IMG/VR virus record: IMGVR_UViG_3300045988_153646 | Strand: one strand, 5' to 3' | From: a virus | Length of the DNA: 11,958 nt | Shown: piece by piece, positions 1 to 11,958 of the stretch | Layout: each line of letters starts with the position of its first letter | Position numbering within the stretch: the stretch's first letter is position 1 | Made by a program: the position numbers and the translations under genes | The notes under the pieces: generated by a model | What the model saw: only the letters and a program-made list of their open reading frames with translations | Told to the model about the DNA's origin: nothing | Database searches by the model: none

Positions 1-229
1 ATAGGTACTTATGGGATTTAACAATTTGTTCACATTTCCCCAAACGCTTTAATACACTAAAGTGCTAAAGCAGTGAAGCAGACCAAACACAATTAGTTAA
101 ACAACACAACAAAATAACAAAACGTATATATAAACAATACAATTTATTAATTGCAATTGCCGGCTATATATGTTATACTATATATGTAATCAAGAGAAGA
201 TTACAACATTAAATCTAAGGAGTTGTTAC
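1..229. repeat. Left inverted terminal repeat (ITR-L)
   Basis: Bases 1-229 are the exact reverse complement of 11730-11958. Identity continues to base 235 with one mismatch (g230 versus a at the mirrored position). The repeat starts at base 1 of the window. Confidence 0.97.
151..179 (+). promoter_or_regulatory. Sigma-A/sigma-70-type promoter inside ITR-L (TTGCAA-17 nt-TATACT with extended -10 TG)
   Basis: -35 TTGCAA at 151-156, a 17-nt spacer ending in TGT (171-173), and -10 TATACT at 174-179. AGGAG (218-222) and ATG 233 follow downstream. Confidence 0.7.
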
Positions 230-232
230 GAT

Positions 233-394
233 ATGTTAAAATTCACATTGCTGTTCGGTAATAATAAACTAGAATTTACCGATATAGACGTTGCATTAAG
301 AAGTGCGTTAGCACTAAGTGAAAACTTCAACGTTCACATGATTGTGTACCATGATAATAAGGTTATAAGACACGTTATGATAAAAGAGGAGTGA
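233..394 (+). CDS. Hypothetical small protein (53 aa), first gene of the left arm
   Basis: ATG 233 lies 10 nt after AGGAG (218-222). The track ORF starting at 170 adds 21 residues (MLYYICNQEKITTLNLRSCY.) that are ITR-encoded, have no RBS and overlap the -10 box. No recognisable motif. Confidence 0.6.
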   Translation: MLKFTLLFGNNKLEFTDIDVALRSALALSENFNVHMIVYHDNKVIRHVMIKEE

Positions 395-401
395 TAAGTC
401 A

Positions 402-587
402 ATGCTAATAGCACAAGGAATACTACTAATAATAGCAATGGTTGTGGGGCTAATCGCAATAGCCCTGCAACTAGCTATGAACATACGGGAATGTATGAAA
501 CCAGACGAACCAGAACCGCAAGAACAACACGTCAAGTTGATAGTCGAGTTAAAGGGAAAAGGGTGGGATAACAATGATAGTAATTAA
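402..587 (+). CDS. Small membrane protein (61 aa): one N-terminal TM helix and an acidic C-terminal tail
   Basis: GAGGAG at 386-391 upstream of ATG 402. Residues ~3-26 (IAQGILLIIAMVVGLIAIALQLAM) are uniformly hydrophobic and are followed by a charged PDEPEPQEQ segment. Confidence 0.65.
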   Translation: MLIAQGILLIIAMVVGLIAIALQLAMNIRECMKPDEPEPQEQHVKLIVELKGKGWDNNDSN

Positions 588-834
588 ATCGTATTCGCCG
601 GCATTGCGCAAATATATAACAATGGAAACGCTGTCAAGCGAAAATGTTCACATAGGCTATATGAACCATAAATATTATATAACACTAAAAGCTATGGAAA
701 AGATATTTAACATAGCAGGCGGTACACGTTGCGGTTATGCTATTTCATATGACCCTGATTTAACTATCTGCACATGGGGAATGTTACCGAGTGAGATTGA
801 AGAAATGCAAGGAGTTGAGTTTAACAATGCCTAA
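574..834 (+). CDS. Hypothetical protein (86 aa)
   Basis: Open frame with a weak G-rich RBS (GGGTGGG, 561-567). It overlaps the previous gene by 14 nt and the next gene by 8 nt (ATGCCTAA), which is consistent with operon packing. The start is uncertain (alternative Met at 622). No motif recognised. Confidence 0.5.
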   Translation: MIVIKSYSPALRKYITMETLSSENVHIGYMNHKYYITLKAMEKIFNIAGGTRCGYAISYDPDLTICTWGMLPSEIEEMQGVEFNNA

Positions 835-1405
835 ACCGATAATACCTGAAAAATTTGTGCGAGGTCTGTCAGACAAGGCACTAAACTCACAAATCAAACG
901 TTATTCAAAACGTGCTAACAGCCGTATAGAGCGACTAAAACGTGAGGGGCTGTGGTATAATTCCGCAAGTATTCAACGCAAATGGGAGGCAGTAACACAT
1001 ACTGCGCCAATAGGCACTAACTCAGGGCGTTTCAGTCGTTCCGTGTCAGGTAACAGAGAAACAAGAGAAGAGCAACTAAAACAATTAATCAGATTTCTAA
1101 ACGCCAAAACCACAGTAAAGGACGTTAAGAACGAGATTAAGACGTTCAAAGCAAAGATAGCTAACTATACTGGAAAAACACCCAGTGACGACCTAGTGGG
1201 CGCAATTAACCGATTAATGGGTAGGTATATGGGCGAGTTTAAGCGGTTCGGAATATCATCAGAACAAGCATATCATATCATCACTGAGTTAGTATACGGC
1301 AAAGGTGAACAAGGCGCAGAAGATAGCATACTACACGCTATACGAACCGCACAATCAAATGATGATTTTTTCCAAAAGGTAACAGAAAACTATACATACT
1401 ATTAG
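827..1405 (+). CDS. Putative terminal protein (192 aa, basic) directly upstream of the DNA polymerase
   Basis: AAGGAG at 809-814 followed by ATG 827; the track start at 791 is a GTG with no RBS. Its position immediately 5' of the protein-primed polymerase matches phi29, Cp-1 and PRD1 organisation. The N-terminus is Lys/Arg-rich and helical-looking (SQIKRYSKRANSRIERLKREG), resembling my recollection of the phi29 TP N-terminal domain. The call rests on synteny and composition only. Confidence 0.55.
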   Translation: MPKPIIPEKFVRGLSDKALNSQIKRYSKRANSRIERLKREGLWYNSASIQRKWEAVTHTAPIGTNSGRFSRSVSGNRETREEQLKQLIRFLNAKTTVKDVKNEIKTFKAKIANYTGKTPSDDLVGAINRLMGRYMGEFKRFGISSEQAYHIITELVYGKGEQGAEDSILHAIRTAQSNDDFFQKVTENYTYY

Positions 1406-1425
1406 CAGACAAACGAGGGAGAGTT

Positions 1426-3609
1426 ATGCAGTATATTACAACGTTTGATATAAATACATTACCAGATATCGAAACAGTACGCAAGTGCAAAACAAGCAAG
1501 TGCGCATATATCAATGCGCCATTCGCCTTTGATATTGAAACAACGTCATATATAGACAATGACGGAAACAAACGTGCGTTTATGTATGAGTTTTCAATGT
1601 CATTGAATGGTGTTCCCGTATATGGTCGATACTGGTATGAGTTCATGAGTGTACTACGTCAGCTAAAACAACGCTATAAACTATCAAAAAAGAAACGTCT
1701 AGTAATATACGTTCATAACCTAGCATATGAATTTCAATTTTTGCAAGGGCGTTTCCCAGTGTCGGACGTTTTCGCCCGGGTAAATCGTCACCCTATGAAA
1801 TGCGTGATTGATGAATGTTTTGAGTTCCGTTGTTCCTATGTGTTGTCAGGTTTATCATTGGCAAAAACCGCAGAACAAATAACAATCCACAATATAGAAA
1901 AGCTGACCGGTGACCTAGACTATAAACTGATTAGAACACGCAAAACACCATTAACCGAACAAGAATTATCCTATTGTGAAAATGACGTGCAAATTATATA
2001 TTGGTTTATCAAGCAGGAAATGTTACAAAATGGTAACAGTATAGCTGATATTCCATTGACAAAAACGGGATATGTGCGTAGATACTGTTATGAATACATT
2101 TCAACTCATACCAATTTTGACCAGTATCGTGCATTTATTAAACACTGCGCTCCTACCGAACCAGAATTGTTTATATTAATGCACAAATGTTTTGCAGGCG
2201 GTTTCACACACGCTAACGTCCTGCACGTTGGCGAAACGTGCGAGAACGTGGGTGCTATAGATTTTACTAGCAGTTATCCTGCGCAAATGGTACGGCATAA
2301 ATATCCTATGACAAAATTTTATAAAGTACCCGTAAATACCCGTAAACAGTTTGAAACACTGGTGAATACAAAGGCGTGTTTGATTGAAATATGTTTTAAG
2401 GGTGTCAATGCAAAAACACCTAACCATATAATCAGTAGTTCAAAATGTCAGTATGTTGAAAACGGGGTATATGACAATGGACGTATAGTTTCAGCCGATA
2501 AGATATACACATATATAACAGACGTTGACTATAACGACATTTGTCAGTTTTATGATATAGACAAAATACACGTTGTTCAAATGTGGGTTGCTAACTATGG
2601 ATATTTACCTAATGAATTTCTACAGTGCGTTTTGACGTTTTTCGCAGACAAAACCACCTTAAAAGGCGTAAAAGGTAAAGAGCAGGAATATCTATTAAAA
2701 AAAGGAATGTTAAACAGTGCGTATGGAATGAGTGTTACTAATCCCGTGAACGATGAATGTGAGTTTGTGGAAAACGATGATGATATAGGCGGTGTTTGGC
2801 AAGAAGTTGAGCAGGATATAAACGGGGCGTTATTAGATAGCTATATAGGCAATAATAAACAATTCCTGCTATACCAGTGGGGCGTGTGGGTAACTGCGTG
2901 GGCTAGACACGAATTGTTTCAAGGTGTTTTGAAAATGGATATTGACGTTGTATACTGTGATACAGATAGCATAAAATATCTACACCCTGACAAGTATAAA
3001 ACGTGGGTTGACGAATATAACGAACGTGTGTTCAGTGATATGCTGAAACGTTGTGATGATATAGGTGTTAGCCGTGATATGGTAAACCCAGTTACGATAA
3101 AAGGTGAACATACACCTCTAGGCGTATTTGATTATGAAAAGACCTACAAATATTTTAAAACACTAGGTGCAAAACGTTACGCATTTTCATACACTGGTGA
3201 TGATTTTAGCATAACTGTGTCAGGACTGAACAAAAAAACGGCAGTTCCGTATATACTGGAATACTGCGAAAATCATAACATTAGTCCGTTTGATTTTTTT
3301 GATGATGATATGTATATACCGGCAGTCTATACCGACAATAACGGAGTTGTTCAATATCCCACAGGCAAATCAACACTATCCTATAGTAATATAGGTGATG
3401 ATTTTTCTGATAAAATCACCGACTATTTAGGAGAAACAGACGTAGTTGATGAAAATAGCTATATTCATATGACCGAGCAGGACTACAGTCTTAGCCTCAC
3501 GGACGCATTTTTAGAATATATTTCTAAGTCACAATACGTTGACGGGGCGCAGGAGTGTCCTAAACCTGACTATCTGAAAATTTTAAAAAATCTGAAAAAG
3601 GAGTGTTAA
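1426..3609 (+). CDS. Family-B DNA polymerase, protein-primed type (727 aa)
   Basis: All motifs are readable. ExoI FAFDIETT (D36/E38). ExoII HNLAYEFQF (N98/E102). SLAK (S144). ExoIII YCENDVQII (Y183/D187). Motif A DFTSSYPAQM (D279). Motif B KKGMLNSAYG (~425). TAWAR. Motif C YCDTDS (Y510-S515, nt 2953-2970). KxY as GAKRYAF. Several strings are near-identical to phi29 gp2 (NDxQII, YPAQM, MLNSxYG, TAWAR, YCDTDS). RBS GAGGGAG at 1415-1421. Confidence 0.97.
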   Translation: MQYITTFDINTLPDIETVRKCKTSKCAYINAPFAFDIETTSYIDNDGNKRAFMYEFSMSLNGVPVYGRYWYEFMSVLRQLKQRYKLSKKKRLVIYVHNLAYEFQFLQGRFPVSDVFARVNRHPMKCVIDECFEFRCSYVLSGLSLAKTAEQITIHNIEKLTGDLDYKLIRTRKTPLTEQELSYCENDVQIIYWFIKQEMLQNGNSIADIPLTKTGYVRRYCYEYISTHTNFDQYRAFIKHCAPTEPELFILMHKCFAGGFTHANVLHVGETCENVGAIDFTSSYPAQMVRHKYPMTKFYKVPVNTRKQFETLVNTKACLIEICFKGVNAKTPNHIISSSKCQYVENGVYDNGRIVSADKIYTYITDVDYNDICQFYDIDKIHVVQMWVANYGYLPNEFLQCVLTFFADKTTLKGVKGKEQEYLLKKGMLNSAYGMSVTNPVNDECEFVENDDDIGGVWQEVEQDINGALLDSYIGNNKQFLLYQWGVWVTAWARHELFQGVLKMDIDVVYCDTDSIKYLHPDKYKTWVDEYNERVFSDMLKRCDDIGVSRDMVNPVTIKGEHTPLGVFDYEKTYKYFKTLGAKRYAFSYTGDDFSITVSGLNKKTAVPYILEYCENHNISPFDFFDDDMYIPAVYTDNNGVVQYPTGKSTLSYSNIGDDFSDKITDYLGETDVVDENSYIHMTEQDYSLSLTDAFLEYISKSQYVDGAQECPKPDYLKILKNLKKEC

Positions 3610-3611
3610 GC

Positions 3612-3935
3612 ATGGGTTGTACTGGTAATTATCTAAACGCTAGTGAAGTATGTGACTATAATACGGCTATGAAACAGTTAGCCGTTGCCGTCATAATAAG
3701 GCTAATCAACGATATGCAACAGAAAAATTACTGCCTAAATTATTCAAAAGATATAAACTATAGAAAACGTAAATTGTTCTATAGTGCTGTTGAATATCCC
3801 CTGCGTTATCCTGAGTGGCTAAATTTTTGGTTAGCCACTGCGGATATGGATATATATGCAGATGATATTACTACAATGGCAAAAGAGAAATACAAACAAG
3901 GGTATATTGAACCCCAGAAAAGGAGTAAACAATGA
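3612..3935 (+). CDS. Hypothetical protein (107 aa) between the polymerase and the packaging ATPase
   Basis: AAAGGAG at 3597-3603 with an 8-nt spacer to ATG 3612; the track start at 3603 is a GTG lying inside the RBS. ATGA overlap with the next gene. No recognisable motif. Confidence 0.7.
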   Translation: MGCTGNYLNASEVCDYNTAMKQLAVAVIIRLINDMQQKNYCLNYSKDINYRKRKLFYSAVEYPLRYPEWLNFWLATADMDIYADDITTMAKEKYKQGYIEPQKRSKQ

Positions 3936-5050
3936 ATAAAATAATTAATAAAATAAAGGGCGCCCCCGTTGATGAATACTATAGTTTAAAACGTATACTG
4001 AAAACTAATGCCACATATAACATAATTTTTGGTAAACGTTCAAACGGAAAAACATTTAGCGTTGTAGAACGGGCGTTAGAACACGGCTGGAAACTAGCAT
4101 ATATACGGCGTTTTGACGAGGAAATAACTAGGAAAAATCTAAATAATTTAGTATGTGCCGACCATGATATCGCAAAACATACCCACGGACAATGGAATAG
4201 TTATTGTTTTCAATCTAACTGTTTTTATTTTACGCTAGTTGAAAACGGCAAGGTTATAAAAAAATCAACTGAGCCGTTTATACACTGTTTTTCATTGAAT
4301 ACAATGGAAACCACCAAAGGCGCAGATAATGGATATTTCCCTATAATTCTGTTTGACGAATTTATAACTAGACGTTTTTATCTGCCTAACGAATTTGTAC
4401 TATTTCAAAATCTATTATCATCAATCATACGAGACCGAGATGGTAGTGAAATATATATGCTAGCAAATACAGTCAATCAATCATGCCCTTATTTTGCTGA
4501 AATGGGTTTATCAAGAATTGACAAAATGAAACAAGGTGAAATACAGATAGTTGATTATGGTGACAGTGGTTTGAGGGTTGCTGTTGAATATTGTAACGAC
4601 ACGACAAACACATTAAAAACCGCTAAATATTTTGCGTTTGATAATCCACAATTAAAAATGATAACAAACGGAAAATGGGAGATTAAGGGTTACCCTCATT
4701 GTCCTATTTCTGTTACCCGTGACAACATAGCGTTTGTATTTTTTGTAGTTTTTGAAGATCATATAATCAGGGGAAACATAGTCAATGACAACGGACAAAT
4801 TTTTGTGTTTTTCAATCCACACACCAACACCAACAGAACACTAACAGAAAACGATATTGTATATAGGTTAGATGTTTCCCCGTTTCCGTTATGGTGTCAG
4901 TCTGTCAATGAAACACCAACAGACGCACATAAAATCATCAGGGAATTAATAAACCGCAATAAAATGTATTTTTCAGATAATACCACGGGCGAAATAATTC
5001 GTAACTGGTTAAAACAACAGTCACAAATAAAACAAACGTTTTTATCATAA
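3932..5050 (+). CDS. DNA encapsidation (packaging) ATPase, phi29 gp16-like (372 aa)
   Basis: Walker A GKRSNGKT (nt 4031-4054). Walker B ILFDEF (D142/E143, nt 4355-4360). Context strings IFGKRSNGKTF...AYIRRF, FDEFI...PNEF and LANTVNQSCPYF parallel my recollection of phi29 gp16 (IGARGIGKSY...IYVRRY, FDEFI...PNEV, LSNAVSVVNPYF). RBS AAAGGAG at 3919-3925. Confidence 0.92.
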   Translation: MNKIINKIKGAPVDEYYSLKRILKTNATYNIIFGKRSNGKTFSVVERALEHGWKLAYIRRFDEEITRKNLNNLVCADHDIAKHTHGQWNSYCFQSNCFYFTLVENGKVIKKSTEPFIHCFSLNTMETTKGADNGYFPIILFDEFITRRFYLPNEFVLFQNLLSSIIRDRDGSEIYMLANTVNQSCPYFAEMGLSRIDKMKQGEIQIVDYGDSGLRVAVEYCNDTTNTLKTAKYFAFDNPQLKMITNGKWEIKGYPHCPISVTRDNIAFVFFVVFEDHIIRGNIVNDNGQIFVFFNPHTNTNRTLTENDIVYRLDVSPFPLWCQSVNETPTDAHKIIRELINRNKMYFSDNTTGEIIRNWLKQQSQIKQTFLS

Positions 5051-5119: not shown

Positions 5120-7213
5120 TTATACAAATACGCCTGCGGTCAATAGTTGTGACAGCATGGTTTTTTCTGTTTCTGTGCATTTAAACGATATTTCAGGATT
5201 ACTAACCACAGTAAAACCCTTAAAATCAGACAGTTTACCAGTTTGTTCGCAAGCAAAGCCTACAGTACGCCCGTAATTATCTGGTACATTTAAAATAGGT
5301 CTATCAATAATGAAATAGCACTTTTGCGGTTGCCACGTTGCAACTGCTGGAGAGCTTGCACTCGCTTCTTGATAATTAGTACCAGTTGCAAAACCACTGT
5401 ACAATTTTTCAGCACTGCTAACCATACCACCAATATTTCCGCTAGCAATTGATGTTACACCACCGACAGCACCGCTAACTACATTTCCGATAATTGTACT
5501 AGCATAACTTGCACTGTCTGTTCCTGTCATTGGAATTGATACACCGACTACTCCGTTCCTATAAATAAATGGAATGTCGTCTTTAAATACTATAGCCGTG
5601 CCTGCTCCTGTCGTGTAGTCAACTATCATTTTTACAGAAATTTTATGCCCCATAAACTCCGCTGTTGAAACAGGTACAACGCCAATATATGGGATATATA
5701 ATTGTGCTGTTGTATATGGTTCATAGTCTAGGAAATTTTTAAACTTGGTAAAAAATGTACATTCACCTAAATCAATCAGGCTGTTTACATTTTCAGTTAG
5801 TTTAATTCCGTTTACACCGGTGTTTGTTCTGCCTATTACAATAGGCTCGGCTTGCGTTGCTGAATTTTTCAACGCAACATTAAACGGAAATAACCGGAGG
5901 TCAATAATGCCGTTCATAGGATTTTCGCCCATTAATGCTAAACCTTTTACAATTTCGTTAAACTTTGTTTCGTCAGCGTTCCATAAAAAATCGGCAAGTT
6001 GTCTAACGCTATTTGACGTGACCGCAAATGACCTATTAAAAACATTAACATTAGATAATGTAGGTTTATTCAAATCTATTTTATCTGTATAATTGTTAGG
6101 GTCTGTATTGCCTATGCCGTTAAATGGGGTATTCTGCCAATCGGTGGGATTATCCCATGTTGTTTGGATTTGTTTTGCATTTTCTGCACCCTCTGAATAT
6201 TTTCCAGTGATTTTTCCGTCATCTGAAATAATACCGCAAAATATTCCATTCTGGTTTAGATTTTCTTGTTTGGCTAATGTTCTGCTAAATGTGTAATATG
6301 TTCCCATTCTGCTATATAATTTATGAATGTTTTCGATACTATAATCAAAAACAGGTAAATATCCAGTATACACATTATTACCAATGGCAAAATATGTTTT
6401 TTTCCACAAATCGGAATAGCCTAAATTTGCATAGTAATATGAATATGTGTTGAAATAATTGGTATTTATATCATCACACCCATAAATGAACGTGTTCAAA
6501 ATTGCGTGTGATTGGTCGGCATCACCAAAATATAACGCACCATAAATGTCATAATTATCCACTATAGAATTTTTTGAATATGTGCAGAATGGTATTATAT
6601 TAAAACCTTGACAGCATTGTCTGCCACCAATTTCAGACCTGAGATAATATGGTAATGCATATATCCCCACAATATTGTGAGTATCTTTATATTGTTTTTC
6701 AAATGTATCTAGGTCAGTATCTATTCTATCGCTATAGCCTGATACATCACCAGCCCCACTATATTCAAATCTATAGGCTATCACTCTCACCAAAAAAAGA
6801 AAGTCTTTTAGTTTGTATTCTGTACCAAAATAATAGCCTAAATTATCACTTCTTTTACTATCATATGCTAGTCTATAATATGTAGTTTTAGTCTGATTAG
6901 CTATTACCGGCATATTTTGCAATGGAGGGGTAGATGGTACATTTAAACGCCCAAACATTGCACATACACCGCTCGGTGTGCCAGTACCTTTTACAAATTC
7001 TGATTGATGTGGTTTATCATATCCACTCCGGATAAAATAATCGTCAGGAGGGTTAAAATCAACGGCATAAAAAATTGACTCGTCAATAGGGTTATTTAAC
7101 TGTAATTTACCATTATCAATCAATTCTTTCATTGATTGTGTGGTTTTAATTCCTGTTAGATATTCTAATGATATACTACGGTCACTTGAATAAATTTCCT
7201 TATTTAACTTCAT
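5120..7213 (-). CDS. Large tail protein (697 aa), tail-knob-like C-terminal part with a possible receptor-binding insertion
   Basis: GGAGGA at 7227-7222 with an 8-nt spacer to ATG 7213. It is the largest structural ORF and the last gene of the virion operon. The C-terminal third carries a Gly/Ala/Ser/Val-rich hydrophobic segment (IIGNVVSGAVGGVTSIASGNIGGMVSS, nt 5414-5494). A globular tail follows, and the layout resembles my recollection of phi29 gp9. The middle region is rich in Tyr/Asn/Gly. Confidence 0.65.
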   Translation of the reverse strand: MKLNKEIYSSDRSISLEYLTGIKTTQSMKELIDNGKLQLNNPIDESIFYAVDFNPPDDYFIRSGYDKPHQSEFVKGTGTPSGVCAMFGRLNVPSTPPLQNMPVIANQTKTTYYRLAYDSKRSDNLGYYFGTEYKLKDFLFLVRVIAYRFEYSGAGDVSGYSDRIDTDLDTFEKQYKDTHNIVGIYALPYYLRSEIGGRQCCQGFNIIPFCTYSKNSIVDNYDIYGALYFGDADQSHAILNTFIYGCDDINTNYFNTYSYYYANLGYSDLWKKTYFAIGNNVYTGYLPVFDYSIENIHKLYSRMGTYYTFSRTLAKQENLNQNGIFCGIISDDGKITGKYSEGAENAKQIQTTWDNPTDWQNTPFNGIGNTDPNNYTDKIDLNKPTLSNVNVFNRSFAVTSNSVRQLADFLWNADETKFNEIVKGLALMGENPMNGIIDLRLFPFNVALKNSATQAEPIVIGRTNTGVNGIKLTENVNSLIDLGECTFFTKFKNFLDYEPYTTAQLYIPYIGVVPVSTAEFMGHKISVKMIVDYTTGAGTAIVFKDDIPFIYRNGVVGVSIPMTGTDSASYASTIIGNVVSGAVGGVTSIASGNIGGMVSSAEKLYSGFATGTNYQEASASSPAVATWQPQKCYFIIDRPILNVPDNYGRTVGFACEQTGKLSDFKGFTVVSNPEISFKCTETEKTMLSQLLTAGVFV

Positions 7214-7716: not shown

Positions 7717-7739
7717 ATTTTCACCTCTTTTAAAATATT

Positions 7740-7763
7740 AGCAGGGGTAATTACACCCCTGCT
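7740..7763 (-). terminator. Hairpin between the major capsid gene and the tail genes (partial terminator or attenuator)
   Basis: AGCAGGGGT (7740-7748) pairs with ACCCCTGCT (7755-7763): a 9-bp GC-rich stem with a 6-nt loop. On the minus-strand RNA it is followed by AAUAUUUUAAAA. Confidence 0.55.
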
Positions 7764-7775
7764 ATATTATAGATT

Positions 7776-10724: not shown

Positions 10725-10746
10725 GGGCTATAGTTATCTATAGCCC
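10725..10746 (-). terminator. Hairpin spanning the ssb stop codon (attenuator or partial terminator ahead of the structural genes)
   Basis: GGGCTATAG (10725-10733) pairs with CTATAGCCC (10738-10746): a 9-bp stem with a 4-nt loop, and the ssb TAA (10736-10734) sits in the loop. An alternative 5-bp pairing exists between AGCCC (10716-10720) and GGGCT (10725-10729). Confidence 0.5.
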
Positions 10747-11111
10747 TTGTAGCGGTTATTACTCTTTTTTGGTGGTTCGTTCTGTGTTTCAAAGCGTTCA
10801 CCCGTGAATGATACGTCTGAAACGTGGACACTTGCTGACGTGCGGTTTTTTCCGTCCTTATCGGTATAGTTGTCAATGTTCAATTCACCAGTAACGGCTA
10901 TCATGTTACCCTTGTCAAAATATTTAGATATAAACACAGCCGTTGAGTTCCAAGCAGTGCAGTTGATAAAATCTGTTATCTTTTCATCAGCGCTCTTGTA
11001 ATTGCGCTCTACAGCAATTGTGAAACGGGTATACCTATTATCACTGTTATCACACTTGATAACGTCAGGTTTAGCCGTCAGACGTCCCATTAAAATAATT
11101 TTGTTTAGCAT
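10734..11111 (-). CDS. ssb: Single-stranded DNA-binding protein, bacterial OB-fold type (125 aa)
   Basis: AAGGAG at 11125-11120 with an 8-nt spacer to ATG 11111; the track start at 11120 is a GTG inside the RBS. Canonical SSB N-terminus MLNKIILMGRLTAKPDV, then FINCTAWNSTAVFISKYFDKGNMIAVTGEL...DKDGKNR. The C-terminus is basic (KKSNNRYKGYR) rather than the usual acidic D-D-D-I-P-F tip. Confidence 0.92.
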   Translation of the reverse strand: MLNKIILMGRLTAKPDVIKCDNSDNRYTRFTIAVERNYKSADEKITDFINCTAWNSTAVFISKYFDKGNMIAVTGELNIDNYTDKDGKNRTSASVHVSDVSFTGERFETQNEPPKKSNNRYKGYR

Positions 11112-11148
11112 TGTAAACACTCCTTTTGAATATTGTTTCTGTCATAGC

Positions 11149-11164
11149 GTACGGGGTCAGTGCC
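11149..11164. repeat. Repeat copy R2 (GTACGGGGTCAGTGCC)
   Basis: The 9-mer GGGGTCAGT at 11153-11161 recurs exactly 40 bp away at 11193-11201. The flanks share GTA..GGGG and ..GCC. Confidence 0.6.
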
Positions 11165-11182
11165 TGCACTTATTTTCATATC

Positions 11183-11210
11183 CTAGTGTATAGGGGTCAG
11201 TCTATGCCCG
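11183..11210. repeat. Repeat copy R1 (CTAGTGTATAGGGGTCAGTCTATGCCCG), also related to 5071-5097
   Basis: Shares GGGGTCAGT with R2. It also shares CTAG..TATAGGGGT-(5/6 nt)-TATGCCCG with the central terminator region (5071-5097: CTAGTATAGGGGTTTATAATATGCCCG). Confidence 0.6.
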
Positions 11211-11389
11211 CCTTGCTATTGCTCACGTTTAACCGCCATGTATAAATTATCGTGCATATGTAAACTCATACCTACAATTCTTTTTTCAATATTATGTTAT
11301 GGTGTTGGCGGTTTGGAATAGGGCTAATTATTTATTCACGCTAACCCTGCGGAACGTGCGACAATCTATTTGAAGGAGGTTACACCTTT

Positions 11390-11418
11390 AGTATAACACT
11401 TAAAATAGAAATTGTCAA
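11390..11418 (-). promoter_or_regulatory. Near-consensus sigma-A promoter (TTGACA-17 nt-TATACT with extended -10 TG) for the right-arm operon
   Basis: On the minus strand: TTGACA at 11418-11413, a 17-nt spacer ending in TGT, and TATACT at 11395-11390. It shares the 10-mer TGTTATACTA with the ITR promoters. Predicted transcription start near G11383. Confidence 0.75.
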
Positions 11419-11420
11419 TG

Positions 11421-11726
11421 TTAAACTATGTACTGTGATAGAACACTGCGTAGCATAGCCATTGATATATTAGCGTTGCCTAGATACGGATATTCACATT
11501 TGATACAGTCGCTAACGTCATCATATCTTAAATAGCTGAAACCTAATTCGTCAGTAAATATTTCTGACGCCATATAATGCTCAAATATAACGTTTGGTAC
11601 AAGCATAACTGTATTATCTATATTGTCATACCAAATATTAGCCGATGTTCGTTTGTCTAACGGCATCTTATTGTATGTTCCCACAGTATTTTTTACACCC
11701 TTGATGTTCTTTCCATTAATTTTCAT
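11421..11726 (-). CDS. Hypothetical protein (101 aa), first gene of the right arm, driven by the ITR cassette
   Basis: ATG 11726 is the mirrored ITR start codon, preceded by the same AGGAG. The 21-residue N-terminal extension in the track ORF (start 11789) is the same ITR-encoded artefact seen at the left end. No recognisable motif. Confidence 0.6.
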   Translation of the reverse strand: MKINGKNIKGVKNTVGTYNKMPLDKRTSANIWYDNIDNTVMLVPNVIFEHYMASEIFTDELGFSYLRYDDVSDCIKCEYPYLGNANISMAMLRSVLSQYIV

Positions 11727-11729
11727 ATT

Positions 11730-11958
11730 GTAACAACTCCTTAGATTTAATGTTGTAATCTTCTCTTGATTACATATATAGTATAACATATATAGCCGGC
11801 AATTGCAATTAATAAATTGTATTGTTTATATATACGTTTTGTTATTTTGTTGTGTTGTTTAACTAATTGTGTTTGGTCTGCTTCACTGCTTTAGCACTTT
11901 AGTGTATTAAAGCGTTTGGGGAAATGTGAACAAATTGTTAAATCCCATAAGTACCTAT
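11730..11958. repeat. Right inverted terminal repeat (ITR-R)
   Basis: Exact reverse complement of 1-229 and ends at the last base of the window. With ITR-L it delimits a linear replicon typical of protein-primed genomes. Confidence 0.97.
11780..11808 (-). promoter_or_regulatory. Mirror copy of the ITR promoter, firing inward from the right end
   Basis: Identical sequence because it lies within the ITR: -35 at 11808-11803 and -10 at 11785-11780 on the minus strand. It drives the ORF starting at 11726. Confidence 0.7.

What the first reader, a model, noticed from the sequence alone, without database searches (positions are those of the whole stretch)
11112..11420. A ~300-bp non-coding island behind the strongest promoter: long structured leader or pRNA-like RNA
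In a genome where genes overlap or sit under 70 bp apart, about 300 bp carries no credible ORF on either strand. It starts with a near-consensus TTGACA-17-TGtTATACT promoter, and roughly 270 nt is transcribed before the ssb RBS. Stems are visible: AACCGCC (11313-11307) with GGCGGTT (11237-11231), enclosing ~70 nt, and AGGGTTA with TAGCCCT around 11347-11319. Bacillus phi29-like phages use a ~170-nt packaging RNA (pRNA) together with the gp16 ATPase and the portal, both of which have homologues here. A divergent pRNA is therefore one candidate. Others are a cis-regulatory leader controlling the replication-to-structural switch, or an sRNA. I could not recognise the pRNA fold by eye, and I see no clear terminator that would release a discrete RNA.
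Basis: partly seen in the sequence, partly recalled or inferred. Interest (0 to 1): 0.75.

Follow-up and report, generated by a model that had tools for sequence, protein, structure and literature searches.

The report
New structured leader RNA in phage
The 300-base gene-free stretch of this tiny phi29-like gut phage encodes a previously undescribed, evolutionarily conserved folded RNA at the start of the main structural-gene transcript; it is not a recognisable phi29 packaging RNA and most likely controls expression of the operon that follows it.

Summary
Window 11112-11420 has no conserved ORF. It lies behind the best sigma-70-type promoter of a complete 11,958-bp linear genome with 235-bp inverted terminal repeats. 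The region is transcribed on the minus strand into the ssb-portal-capsid-tail operon.

Ten distinct homologues from related metagenomic phages (portal identity 66-95%) show that the transcript is a real structured RNA. It has 39 base pairs in 7 helices. 98% of cells are paired, against 77% in shuffles and 27-39% when partners are slid. 25 pairs carry compensatory double changes.

The fold has two domains:
- Domain 1 is an H-type pseudoknot plus an expandable hairpin.
- Domain 2 is an irregular hairpin with invariant internal loops and an invariant ACCCC apical loop.

No Rfam family matches, pRNA included, even at E<=10. The three-way-junction closing helix that a pRNA-like fold needs shows no covariation. 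No terminator releases a discrete RNA.

The 5' end is an anti-Shine-Dalgarno sequence that pairs with the ssb ribosome-binding site. The RNA core persists where ssb has been replaced by an unrelated gene. A conserved terminator follows the capsid gene.

Best reading: a new cis-acting operon leader RNA. A packaging-RNA role is not excluded.

The parts
11390..11418 (-). Sigma-70-type promoter: -35 TTGACA (11418-11413), 17-nt spacer, extended -10 TGtTATACT (11398-11390). Predicted transcription start near 11383.
   Evidence: Best promoter-like site in the window, 11 of 12 plus TG. Coordinates verified. A consensus promoter sits at the same position in all relatives.
11371..11383 (-). 5'-terminal segment GUAACCUCCUUCA. 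It is an anti-Shine-Dalgarno sequence and forms the 5' strand of long-range helix P0 with the ssb SD region.
   Evidence: RNAduplex of the 5' end against the SD region gives -11.3 kcal/mol, better than every other 22-nt window of the leader. L117 gives -12.7 and L109 -15.7, the latter with a compensatory change of the terminal pair. The pairing is weak in genomes that carry the 112-aa gene cassette in place of ssb.
11320..11358 (-). H-type pseudoknot. S1 is CACGU (11358-11354) paired with GCGUG (11341-11337, inside the H1 loop). H1 is AGGGUUA (11348-11342) paired with UAGCCCU (11326-11320). The A-rich loop L3 is 11336-11327.
   Evidence: H1 is 97% paired, with 5 of 9 pairs showing double changes. 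S1 is 92% paired, with 2 of 5 pairs showing double changes (L092, L112). The U.G wobble in H1 is kept in 9 of 10 sequences, which fixes the minus strand as the functional strand.
11314..11319 (-). Junction AUUCCA between H1 and H2. The CCA is invariant.
   Evidence: Invariant columns in alignments A7 and A12.
11231..11313 (-). Hairpin H2: AACCGCCA (11313-11306) paired with UGGCGGUU (11238-11231), enclosing a 67-nt variable insert (11305-11239).
   Evidence: 100% paired, and all 8 pairs show double changes. The enclosed loop is 65-67 nt in the window group, 32-38 nt in L109-L111, and 3-5 nt in L112 and L113 (which counts it with a 7-bp stem).
11221..11228 (-). Conserved single-stranded motif ACGUGAGC. 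It could pair with CACGU as alternative helix P1.
   Evidence: Conserved in 9 of 10 sequences. Pairing as P1 shows no covariation. RNAalifold picks it only as the nested alternative.
11144..11219 (-). Domain 2, an irregular hairpin. P3 is 11219-11215 with 11148-11144. P4 is 11211-11207 with 11155-11151. P5b is 11204-11202 with 11160-11158. P5a is 11200-11198 with 11166-11164. Internal loops are CA/AC and A/GCA. The apical loop (11197-11167) begins with the invariant ACCCC.
   Evidence: P3 is 100% paired with 5 of 6 double changes. P4 is 98% paired with 3 of 5. P5b and P5a are 100% paired, each with one covarying pair; the P5a middle pair occurs as A-U, U-A and C-G. RNAalifold recovers these helices independently. 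Covariance model R2 scores 48-75 bits on clade members.
11109..11125 (-). SD AAGGAG (11125-11120), spacer, and ssb start codon ATG (11111-11109). This is the 3' strand of P0.
   Evidence: The SSB identity rests on PF00436 at 8e-26 and phrog_44.
7739..7764 (-). Context only, and a possible downstream target. An intrinsic-terminator-like hairpin plus U tract lies between the capsid gene and the two distal tail genes of the same operon.
   Evidence: 11-bp stem followed by AUAUUUU. A hairpin plus U tract is present and covaries at the same place in all 8 clade genomes examined.

Best explanation
The island encodes, on the minus strand, a conserved structured RNA of about 240 nt. It is the 5' leader of the ssb-portal-capsid-tail operon and acts in cis on that operon.

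Shown:
- Host RNA polymerase would start at about 11383 from a consensus extended -10 promoter.
- The nascent RNA folds into two domains. Domain 1 is the pseudoknot S1/H1 plus the expandable hairpin H2. Domain 2 is the irregular hairpin P3-P4-P5b-P5a, with invariant internal loops and an invariant ACCCC apical loop.
- There is no terminator, so transcription continues into ssb.
- In genomes where ssb follows, the first 10-13 nt (GUAACCUCCUU, a copy of the 16S rRNA anti-SD) are complementary to the ssb SD region. A long-range closing helix can therefore mask the ribosome-binding site.

Inferred, layer 1: this SD masking throttles or times SSB translation and protects the 5' end of the mRNA.

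Inferred, layer 2: the invariant core is kept even where ssb has been swapped for an unrelated gene and the anti-SD has decayed. It therefore serves the whole operon. The most plausible operon-wide role is a factor-binding or RNA-polymerase-binding element, in the manner of put, EAR or canT, that lets transcription pass the conserved terminator after the capsid gene and reach the tail genes. I put this antitermination sub-mechanism alone at about 0.3.
For: Structure:
- 39 pairs in 7 helices; 98.0% of cells paired, against 76.7+-1.5% in shuffles and 27-39% when partners are slid.
- 25 pairs show double changes, and 0 of 500 shuffles reach the observed values.
- RNAalifold recovers the same nested helices.

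Strand: conserved G.U wobbles in H1, P4 and P5b would be A.C mismatches on the other strand.

Selection: the RNA core is more conserved than 4-fold degenerate sites of neighbouring genes. Against L081 it is 79% vs 62%; against distant members 57-63% vs 41-47%.

Cis context:
- It lies directly behind the strongest promoter, with no terminator inside it.
- A promoter is conserved in all relatives.
- 5' end to SD duplex energies are -11 to -16 kcal/mol in window, L117 and L109, better than every other leader window. L109 has a compensatory change at the terminal pair. Values are -8 to -11 in the other SSB-type genomes and -4.6 to -7.5 where a 112-aa gene replaces ssb.

The core is independent of the first gene. 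In L081, L092, L093, L110, L111 and L116 an unrelated 112-aa ORF follows the same RNA. That ORF is a laterally exchanged cassette: it is 85% identical to L137's, while the portals of the two clades are about 45% identical.

Operon logic: a covarying hairpin plus U tract follows the capsid gene in all 8 clade genomes checked.

Precedent: RNA-only processive antiterminators placed just downstream of promoters in phages and Gram-positive mobile elements (PMC9378689, PMC11658703).
Against: - No experiment exists; these phages are known only from metagenomes.
- The anti-SD pairing is weak or lost in 5 of 10 genomes, so it cannot be the core function.
- Antitermination is inferred only from position and from the downstream terminator. 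Partial read-through of capsid-gene terminators is common without any antiterminator.
- No similarity to put was tested, because no model was at hand. EAR-type RNAs, if in Rfam, did not match.
- The invariant loops could equally bind a small ligand or a phage protein.
- The family was found only in a narrow clade. Covariance models R1 and R2 find nothing in relatives with 42-49% portal identity.
- The alignment was fitted by hand to the structure, which inflates the percentage of paired cells, though not the number of distinct compensatory pair types.
Confidence: 0.55

Rival explanations
1. A packaging RNA, functionally analogous to phi29 pRNA. The leader, or a processed piece of it, would bind the portal and the gp16-type ATPase on proheads and would be needed for DNA packaging. 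It would have a fold unrelated to the Bacillus-phage pRNAs.
For: - The genome encodes a phi29-type connector (PF05352) and a Podovirus_Gp16-type ATPase.
- About 2.5% of a 12-kb genome is spent on this RNA.
- It is made in step with portal and capsid mRNA.
- Two adjacent hairpins (H1, H2) follow a possible closing helix.
- The H1 loop is complementary to the 3' part of the H2 insert, by 10-11 perfect bp in L110 and L111 (0 of 500 shuffles) and by 9 bp with a bulge in L109.
- Known pRNAs share only about 12% sequence identity (PMC5066667), so failure of homology searches is weak evidence against.
Against: - No hit to Rfam pRNA at E<=10 and none in relatives.
- The three-way-junction closing helix P1 has 0 compensatory pairs, and its mutations are uncompensated. 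The competing pseudoknot covaries.
- Loop-loop complementarity is not above chance in the window group. It is impossible in L112 and L113, whose H2 loops are 3 and 5 nt.
- There is no terminator, and the RNA is transcribed inward as an mRNA leader with an anti-SD that pairs with the next gene's SD.
- pRNA is so far known only in Bacillus phages (PMC11476376).
- Relatives with the same packaging genes at 42-49% portal identity have no detectable homologue.
Confidence: 0.1
2. A riboswitch-like sensor. One or both domains would bind a small molecule or ion, and binding would set the balance between the pseudoknot (CACGU with the H1 loop) and the alternative helix (CACGU with ACGUG of the downstream motif). 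That balance would also govern the closing anti-SD/SD helix, and so gate translation of the first gene.
For: - The architecture is typical of aptamers: covarying helices frame invariant internal-loop and junction nucleotides (CCA, CA/AC, A/GCA, ACCCC).
- Two mutually exclusive partners exist for CACGU, both conserved.
- The anti-SD/SD helix would serve as an expression platform.
Against: - No known riboswitch class matches.
- The element is restricted to one narrow phage clade and has no cellular representatives in the GTDB pattern scan.
- The downstream gene is not metabolic and is interchangeable.
- The anti-SD platform is lost in several genomes while the core is kept.
Confidence: 0.1
3. 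A trans-acting RNA cut from the leader, such as a decoy or sponge for a host factor or defence protein, or a base-pairing sRNA.
For: - High expression is expected from the strongest promoter.
- Invariant single-stranded C-rich loop.
- The core is conserved regardless of the downstream gene.
Against: - No complement to the invariant GACCCC boxes exists anywhere in the phage genome.
- No terminator or obvious long duplex for processing.
- The host is unknown, so host targets cannot be searched.
Confidence: 0.12
4. A DNA-level element, not an RNA: operator or activator sites, an origin, or a packaging signal. On this view the two GACCCC boxes would be direct-repeat protein-binding sites.
For: Two 12-16-bp direct repeats (GGCA..CUGACCCC) lie downstream of a promoter.
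Against: - Box spacing varies among relatives (33, 34, 35, 40 and 45 bp), so the boxes are not helically phased.
- The boxes are the two strands of a covarying hairpin: the variable base in box 1 pairs with the variable base before box 2 as U-A, A-U or C-G.
- Conserved G.U wobbles are strand-specific.
Confidence: 0.03

Closest known systems
phi29-family prohead/packaging RNA (pRNA, Rfam RF00044)
   Same: - A non-coding RNA of 120-250 nt in a small protein-primed podovirus that also encodes a phi29-type connector and a gp16-type ATPase.
- It has its own strong promoter.
- It has two adjacent hairpin arms, and in some genomes a loop of one is complementary to the other.
   Different: - No sequence or covariance-model similarity.
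- Pseudoknot plus hairpin plus a second irregular-hairpin domain, instead of helices A, C, E and D around a U-rich three-way junction.
- The closing helix is not supported by covariation.
- The RNA is the leader of an mRNA, transcribed inward without a terminator. pRNA is a discrete gene at the genome end.
- Its 5' end is an anti-SD.
RNA-only processive antiterminators (HK022 putL/putR; B. subtilis EAR; Tn916 canT; pLS20 conAn2)
   Same: - A structured nascent RNA placed just downstream of the main promoter of a long operon in a mobile element.
- It acts, or is proposed here to act, in cis.
- Intrinsic terminators lie further down the same operon.
- put consists of two stem-loops, the first of which forms a triplex. 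Here H1 has an A-rich loop crossing a pseudoknot stem, followed by a second stem-loop.
   Different: - No homology demonstrated.
- This RNA is larger than put (about 165-250 nt against about 70 nt) and has a second domain.
- Antitermination activity is purely inferred.
T4 gene 32 (SSB) autoregulatory mRNA leader
   Same: An H-type pseudoknot lies near the 5' end of the leader of a phage ssb gene, so translational control of an SSB is plausible.
   Different: - In T4 the pseudoknot is followed by an unstructured A/U-rich tract up to the RBS. Here a hairpin and a 76-nt structured domain intervene.
- Masking would be by an anti-SD helix.
- Half of the genomes carry an unrelated gene after the same RNA.
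Translational leaders and riboswitches that sequester the SD with a distal anti-SD strand
   Same: A CCUCC-containing strand far upstream pairs with the SD and encloses a folded sensor domain.
   Different: - No known aptamer class matches.
- No ligand is known.
- The anti-SD sits at the very 5' end of the transcript.

Membership tests
phi29-type pRNA (RF00044) | Detectable by the Rfam covariance model for pRNA | tested here: not met
   No match at gathering threshold. No match at E<=10 on 11000-11958 or on the 301-nt island alone. None in 11 related genomes.
phi29-type pRNA (RF00044) | Three-way junction closed by a helix A formed by the 5' and 3' parts of the RNA | tested here: not met
   The candidate closing helix CACGUU/AACGUG has 0 pairs with double changes, and 4 of its 6 pairs depart from pairing only through unpaired cells. 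The same 5' strand covaries with the H1 loop instead.
phi29-type pRNA (RF00044) | Two loops (CE and D) with Watson-Crick complementarity that covaries and allows intermolecular ring formation | tested here: inconclusive
   The H1-loop to H2-insert duplex is beyond chance only in L110 and L111 (0 of 500 shuffles) and borderline in L109. It is not beyond chance in the window group (0.13-0.50). It is impossible in L112 and L113, whose loops are 3 and 5 nt.
phi29-type pRNA (RF00044) | Discrete transcript with its own promoter and end, encoded near a genome terminus and not part of an mRNA | tested here: not met
   A promoter is present, but there is no terminator-like site in the island. The RNA runs into ssb 260 nt downstream, and its 5' end pairs with the ssb SD.
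phi29-type pRNA (RF00044) | Binds the prohead connector and the ATPase, and is required for packaging | not testable with these tools
   Connector and gp16-type ATPase genes are present, but that is true of all phi29-like phages.
RNA-only processive antiterminators (put / EAR / canT type) | Structured RNA in the nascent transcript shortly downstream of the operon promoter | tested here: met
   The fold starts about 25 nt after the predicted start site.
RNA-only processive antiterminators (put / EAR / canT type) | Terminators inside the same operon, upstream of genes that must still be expressed | tested here: met
   A conserved, covarying hairpin plus U tract lies after the capsid gene, followed by the 168-aa and 697-aa tail genes. 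No promoter-like site of 9 of 12 or better is listed in that 59-nt gap.
RNA-only processive antiterminators (put / EAR / canT type) | Sequence or structure homology to put, EAR or canT | not tested
Nothing in Rfam matched.
RNA-only processive antiterminators (put / EAR / canT type) | Makes RNA polymerase terminator-resistant in cis | not testable with these tools
   Needs a reporter or in vitro transcription assay.
T4 gene 32-type autoregulatory leader | 5' pseudoknot followed by an unstructured A/U-rich tract reaching the RBS of an ssb gene | tested here: not met
   A pseudoknot is present. However, H2 and domain 2 (76 nt, structured) lie between it and the RBS, and 5 of 10 distinct leaders precede a non-SSB gene.
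Known riboswitch classes (Rfam) | Match to a curated aptamer model | tested here: not met
   No hits at E<=10.

The most novel reading that the evidence does not exclude
The RNA is the packaging RNA of this clade: a structurally unrelated functional counterpart of pRNA. It would be the first outside the Bacillus Salasmaviridae, and would show that RNA-dependent packaging motors are widespread among phi29-like phages and can be built from different folds. A second, less exotic novel reading is an RNA-only processive antiterminator in a phi29-like phage (probability about 0.3, interest about 0.7).
Probability: 0.1. Interest if true: 0.9.

Novelty: new variant of a known kind. Interest (0 to 1): 0.62.

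Why it matters
A 12-kb phage spends about 2.5% of its genome on an RNA whose fold has been held by selection across genomes with saturated synonymous sites, yet the RNA matches none of 4,227 Rfam families.

If it is a cis-acting antiterminator or translational gate, it shows how a minimal phage that encodes no recognisable transcription regulator can time and balance replication and structural genes with RNA alone.

If it turned out to be a packaging RNA, it would overturn the view that pRNA is peculiar to Bacillus phages.

In either case it is a compact, well-defined new RNA family: a pseudoknot, an expandable hairpin, and an irregular hairpin with invariant loops. It is ready for structure probing and reporter assays.

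Tried and rejected
1. Single-sequence folding gave z = -1.0, which is uninformative.

2. Close homologues were sought in GenBank phages. Megablast found nothing. tblastn with the portal found only relatives at 31% identity or less.

3. IMG/VR, the JGI metagenome collection and GTDB were scanned with portal protein queries and with DNA patterns.
- They yielded L081, L092 and L093.
- L094 is a 94%-identical fragment that lacks the leader.
- The rest were distant relatives or chance hits in high-GC coding sequence.
- The useful divergent homologues came from Logan and ENA contigs, reached through portal protein clusters.

4. The 365-407-nt 'gaps' in L086-L089 looked like analogous islands. On alignment they appear to be a conserved gene behind an RBS that my ORF caller missed, possibly because of an alternative genetic code.

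5. By eye I saw an H1-CCA-H2 module in the distant relatives L118 and L140. Covariance model R1 with filters off gives no match there (E>1), so I dropped it.

6. I first read the two GACCCC boxes as tandem protein-binding repeats or as a sigma-54-like promoter. I rejected both readings because the spacing is variable, the -12 element is not conserved, and the boxes pair with each other in a covarying hairpin.

7. The three-way-junction helix P1 was rejected in favour of the pseudoknot.

8. The second pseudoknot, between the H1 loop and the H2 insert, is kept only as a hypothesis.

9. A search for targets complementary to the boxes within the phage genome found none.

10. Pfam gave nothing for the upstream 101-aa ORF or the 112-aa replacement gene. 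Structure prediction of the 112-aa protein was not possible, because only window or database proteins may be submitted.

Full report
**What the window is.** The 11,958-bp window is a complete linear genome with perfect 235-bp inverted terminal repeats.
- The plus strand (170-5050) carries small ORFs, a protein-primed-type family-B DNA polymerase and a gp16-type packaging ATPase.
- The minus strand (11789-5120) carries a 101/122-aa ORF, an OB-fold SSB, a phi29-type connector, the major capsid protein and tail genes.
- There is no close relative among GenBank phages. The nearest cultured portals are at most 31% identical.
- Related contigs come from human-gut and other metagenomes.

**Observation check.** Apart from the termini, 11121-11420 is the only gap of 150 nt or more between ORFs. 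With the ssb ATG at 11111-11109, the island is 11112-11420.
- The minus-strand promoter TTGACA-17-TGtTATACT (11418-11390) is the best sigma-70-like site in the genome.
- No terminator-like site lies in the island.
- Short ORFs in the island are not conserved, and indels against the closest homologue are not multiples of three.
- A single-sequence fold is not significant (z = -1.0), so the case rests on comparison with relatives.

**Homologues.** IMG/VR and the JGI/ENA metagenome scan gave L081, L092 and L093, whose island is 81% identical. A search of 5.8 billion proteins with the portal gave a graded series at 95-66% identity. Their contigs (L109-L117) all keep a 190-310-nt gap at the same place, behind a consensus promoter. 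That gives ten distinct leader sequences.

Against these relatives, 4-fold degenerate sites of portal, capsid and tail genes are only 41-62% identical, while the RNA core is 57-95% identical. The core is therefore under purifying selection.

**Structure.** I aligned the ten leaders by hand, with gaps written as N so that MAFFT kept the register. The model has seven helices:
- S1: CACGU (11358-11354) pairs with GCGUG in the loop of H1, forming an H-type pseudoknot with an A-rich third loop.
- H1: 11348-11342 with 11326-11320.
- H2: 11313-11306 with 11238-11231. The enclosed loop is 65-67 nt in the window group, 32-38 nt in L109-L111, and 3-5 nt in L112 and L113.
- P3, P4, P5b and P5a: together an irregular hairpin spanning 11219-11144.

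On this alignment 98.0% of 354 cells are standard pairs. Column shuffles give 76.7+-1.5%, and sliding the partners by 1-3 columns gives 27-39%. Of the 39 pairs, 25 carry changes on both sides, and 0 of 500 shuffles reach the observed scores.

Support per helix:

| Helix | Pairs with double changes |
|---|---|
| H2 | 8 of 8 |
| P3 | 5 of 6 |
| H1 | 5 of 9 |
| P4 | 3 of 5 |
| S1 | 2 of 5 |
| P5b | 1 of 3 |
| P5a | 1 of 3 |

RNAalifold on the same alignment recovers H1, H2, P3, P4, P5b and P5a by itself.

The alignment was fitted to the structure. This biases the percentage paired, but it cannot create the many distinct compensatory pair types. For example, the P5a middle pair occurs as A-U, U-A and C-G.

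Conserved G.U wobbles in H1, P4 and P5b fix the minus strand as the functional strand, and so point to RNA rather than duplex DNA.

The two striking 'GACCCC boxes' are not protein-site repeats. They are the two strands of domain 2. Its invariant unpaired nucleotides are the CA/AC loop, the A/GCA loop and the ACCCC at the start of the apical loop.

**Pseudoknot or three-way junction.** CACGU(U) could instead pair with the conserved downstream motif (A)ACGUG, which would close a pRNA-like three-way junction. That helix has no compensatory change. The substitutions in L081, L092 and L112 are left uncompensated there. In the H1 loop, by contrast, they are compensated: L092 becomes G-C, and L112 gains two C-G pairs. 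Because ACGU is a palindrome the two pairings compete, so a switch between them cannot be excluded.

A further contact between the H1 loop and the 3' end of the H2 insert (UUUACAC) is perfect over 10-11 bp in L110 and L111 (0 of 500 shuffles) and borderline in L109. It is not above chance in the window group. Genomes with a minimal H2 also have a short third loop, which fits this contact, but I keep it only as a hypothesis.

**Distribution.** Covariance models of domain 1 (R1) and domain 2 (R2) score 26-41 and 48-75 bits on all clade members. They find nothing significant in 38 other phi29-like loci, including relatives with 42-49% portal identity, even with filters off. Pattern scans of IMG/VR and GTDB returned only chance matches. 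The family is therefore confined, as far as can be seen, to one clade of uncultured 12-kb phages.

**Comparison with known RNAs.** Rfam 15 gives no match at gathering thresholds in the window or in 11 relatives. It gives none at E<=10 on the island alone.

pRNA is defined by helices A-F around a three-way junction, interlocking CE and D loops, and a discrete transcript (PMC5066667). It is so far known only in Bacillus phages (PMC11476376). Of these features:
- the model match, the closing helix and the discrete transcript are not met;
- loop complementarity is inconclusive.

I therefore do not file the RNA as a pRNA.

**How it probably works.**

First, the predicted 5' end GUAACCUCCUU resembles the 3' end of Firmicute 16S rRNA (this resemblance is from my own knowledge). 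It is complementary to the ssb SD region.
- The duplex is -11.3 kcal/mol in the window, -12.7 in L117 and -15.7 in L109. Each is stronger than for any other 22-nt window of the same leader.
- In L109 the diverged 5' end keeps an 11-bp match, including a compensatory change of the terminal pair.
- All five SSB-type genomes reach -8 kcal/mol or lower.
- Genomes where a 112-aa ORF replaces ssb reach only -4.6 to -7.5.

SD masking of ssb thus looks ancestral. It is demonstrated only as complementarity.

Second, the core is kept where ssb has been displaced. The 112-aa cassette is 85% identical to that of a phage whose portal is only about 45% identical. The core's job must therefore concern the operon, or act in trans.

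Third, a covarying hairpin plus U tract follows the capsid gene in every clade genome examined, with two tail genes downstream. RNA-only processive antiterminators sit in just such a position in HK022, the B. subtilis eps operon, Tn916 and pLS20 (PMC9378689, PMC11658703).

I therefore favour a cis-acting leader (0.55). It would gate the first cistron, and its invariant core would act on the transcription complex or bind a factor. Antitermination alone I put at about 0.3. The rivals are a pRNA-like packaging RNA (0.10), a ligand-sensing switch (0.10), a processed trans-acting RNA (0.12) and a DNA-level element (0.03).

**Verdict.** It is a new, covariation-supported, two-domain pseudoknotted RNA family at the head of the structural operon of a minimal phi29-like phage.
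- The 'structured leader' interpretation is supported.
- The 'pRNA' interpretation fails the testable membership criteria, although a packaging role is not excluded.
- The function remains to be tested experimentally.

Noticed in passing
window 1-235 and 11724-11958: The window is a complete linear genome with perfect 235-bp inverted terminal repeats. Each repeat carries a promoter-like site (TTGCAA-17-TGnTATACT). Each also carries the first 20 codons (MLYYICNQEKITTLNLRSCY) of the outermost ORF on its side (170-394 + and 11789-11421 -), so two different proteins would share an N-terminus if the ATG inside the ITR is used. In L081 the homologous ORF is called from the internal Met (MKINGK...).
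   Followed up: partly
L081 1-534 and 11392-11925: In the close relative L081 the inverted terminal repeat is 534 bp (96% complementary) and contains the entire 101-aa ORF, which is therefore present at both genome ends. The structured RNA's promoter begins right at the inner ITR boundary.
   Followed up: partly
window 10734-11111 (-); L081 841-1179; L137 2305-2643: The OB-fold ssb gene is replaced, at exactly the same position between the leader RNA and the portal gene, by an unrelated 112-aa ORF with no Pfam match in L081, L092, L093, L110, L111 and L116. That ORF is 85% identical to the one in L137, a phage whose portal is only about 45% identical to the window's. This indicates lateral cassette exchange, and possibly a non-orthologous ssDNA-binding protein. 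Homology between the ssb-type and 112-aa-type leaders ends shortly after the UAUGAC at the 3' end of the RNA.
   Followed up: partly
window 7739-7764 (-): A strong hairpin (11 bp) plus U tract lies between the capsid gene and the next gene. A hairpin plus U tract is conserved, with covariation of the stem, in all eight clade genomes examined. It is a likely intrinsic terminator or attenuator that sets the capsid-to-tail expression ratio.
   Followed up: partly
window 5120-7213 (-), compared with L117, L109, L110, L112, L113: The 697-aa tail protein is mosaic. It is 88-89% identical in L081 and L116 but only 59% in L117, whose portal (89%) and capsid (96%) are as close as theirs. This suggests exchange of a host-range module.
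   Followed up: no
L086 7931-8295; L088 7880-8280; L089 7725-8131: Low-GC (29-30%) relatives show apparent 365-407-nt 'gaps' upstream of the DNA polymerase. These align as a conserved sequence that starts with an RBS and an ATG. It is probably the terminal-protein gene, read with an alternative genetic code or otherwise missed by the standard-code ORF caller.
   Followed up: no
L118 1775-2026; L140 1516-1730; L137 2133-2304; L141 1-128: More distant relatives (portal 42-49% identical) also keep a gene-free stretch just upstream of the small gene that precedes the portal: 172-252 nt in L118, L140 and L137, and at least 128 nt in L141, where the contig starts. They share short motifs (CATTTACAC; TAAGAGGNCTAAACCGC) but do not match the covariance models. 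A different, possibly analogous RNA may sit there.
   Followed up: partly
L112 1535-2170; L113 1372-2031: The two most divergent clade members carry a CHAP-domain (lysin-like) gene between ssb and the portal gene. The window has no gene at that position.
   Followed up: no
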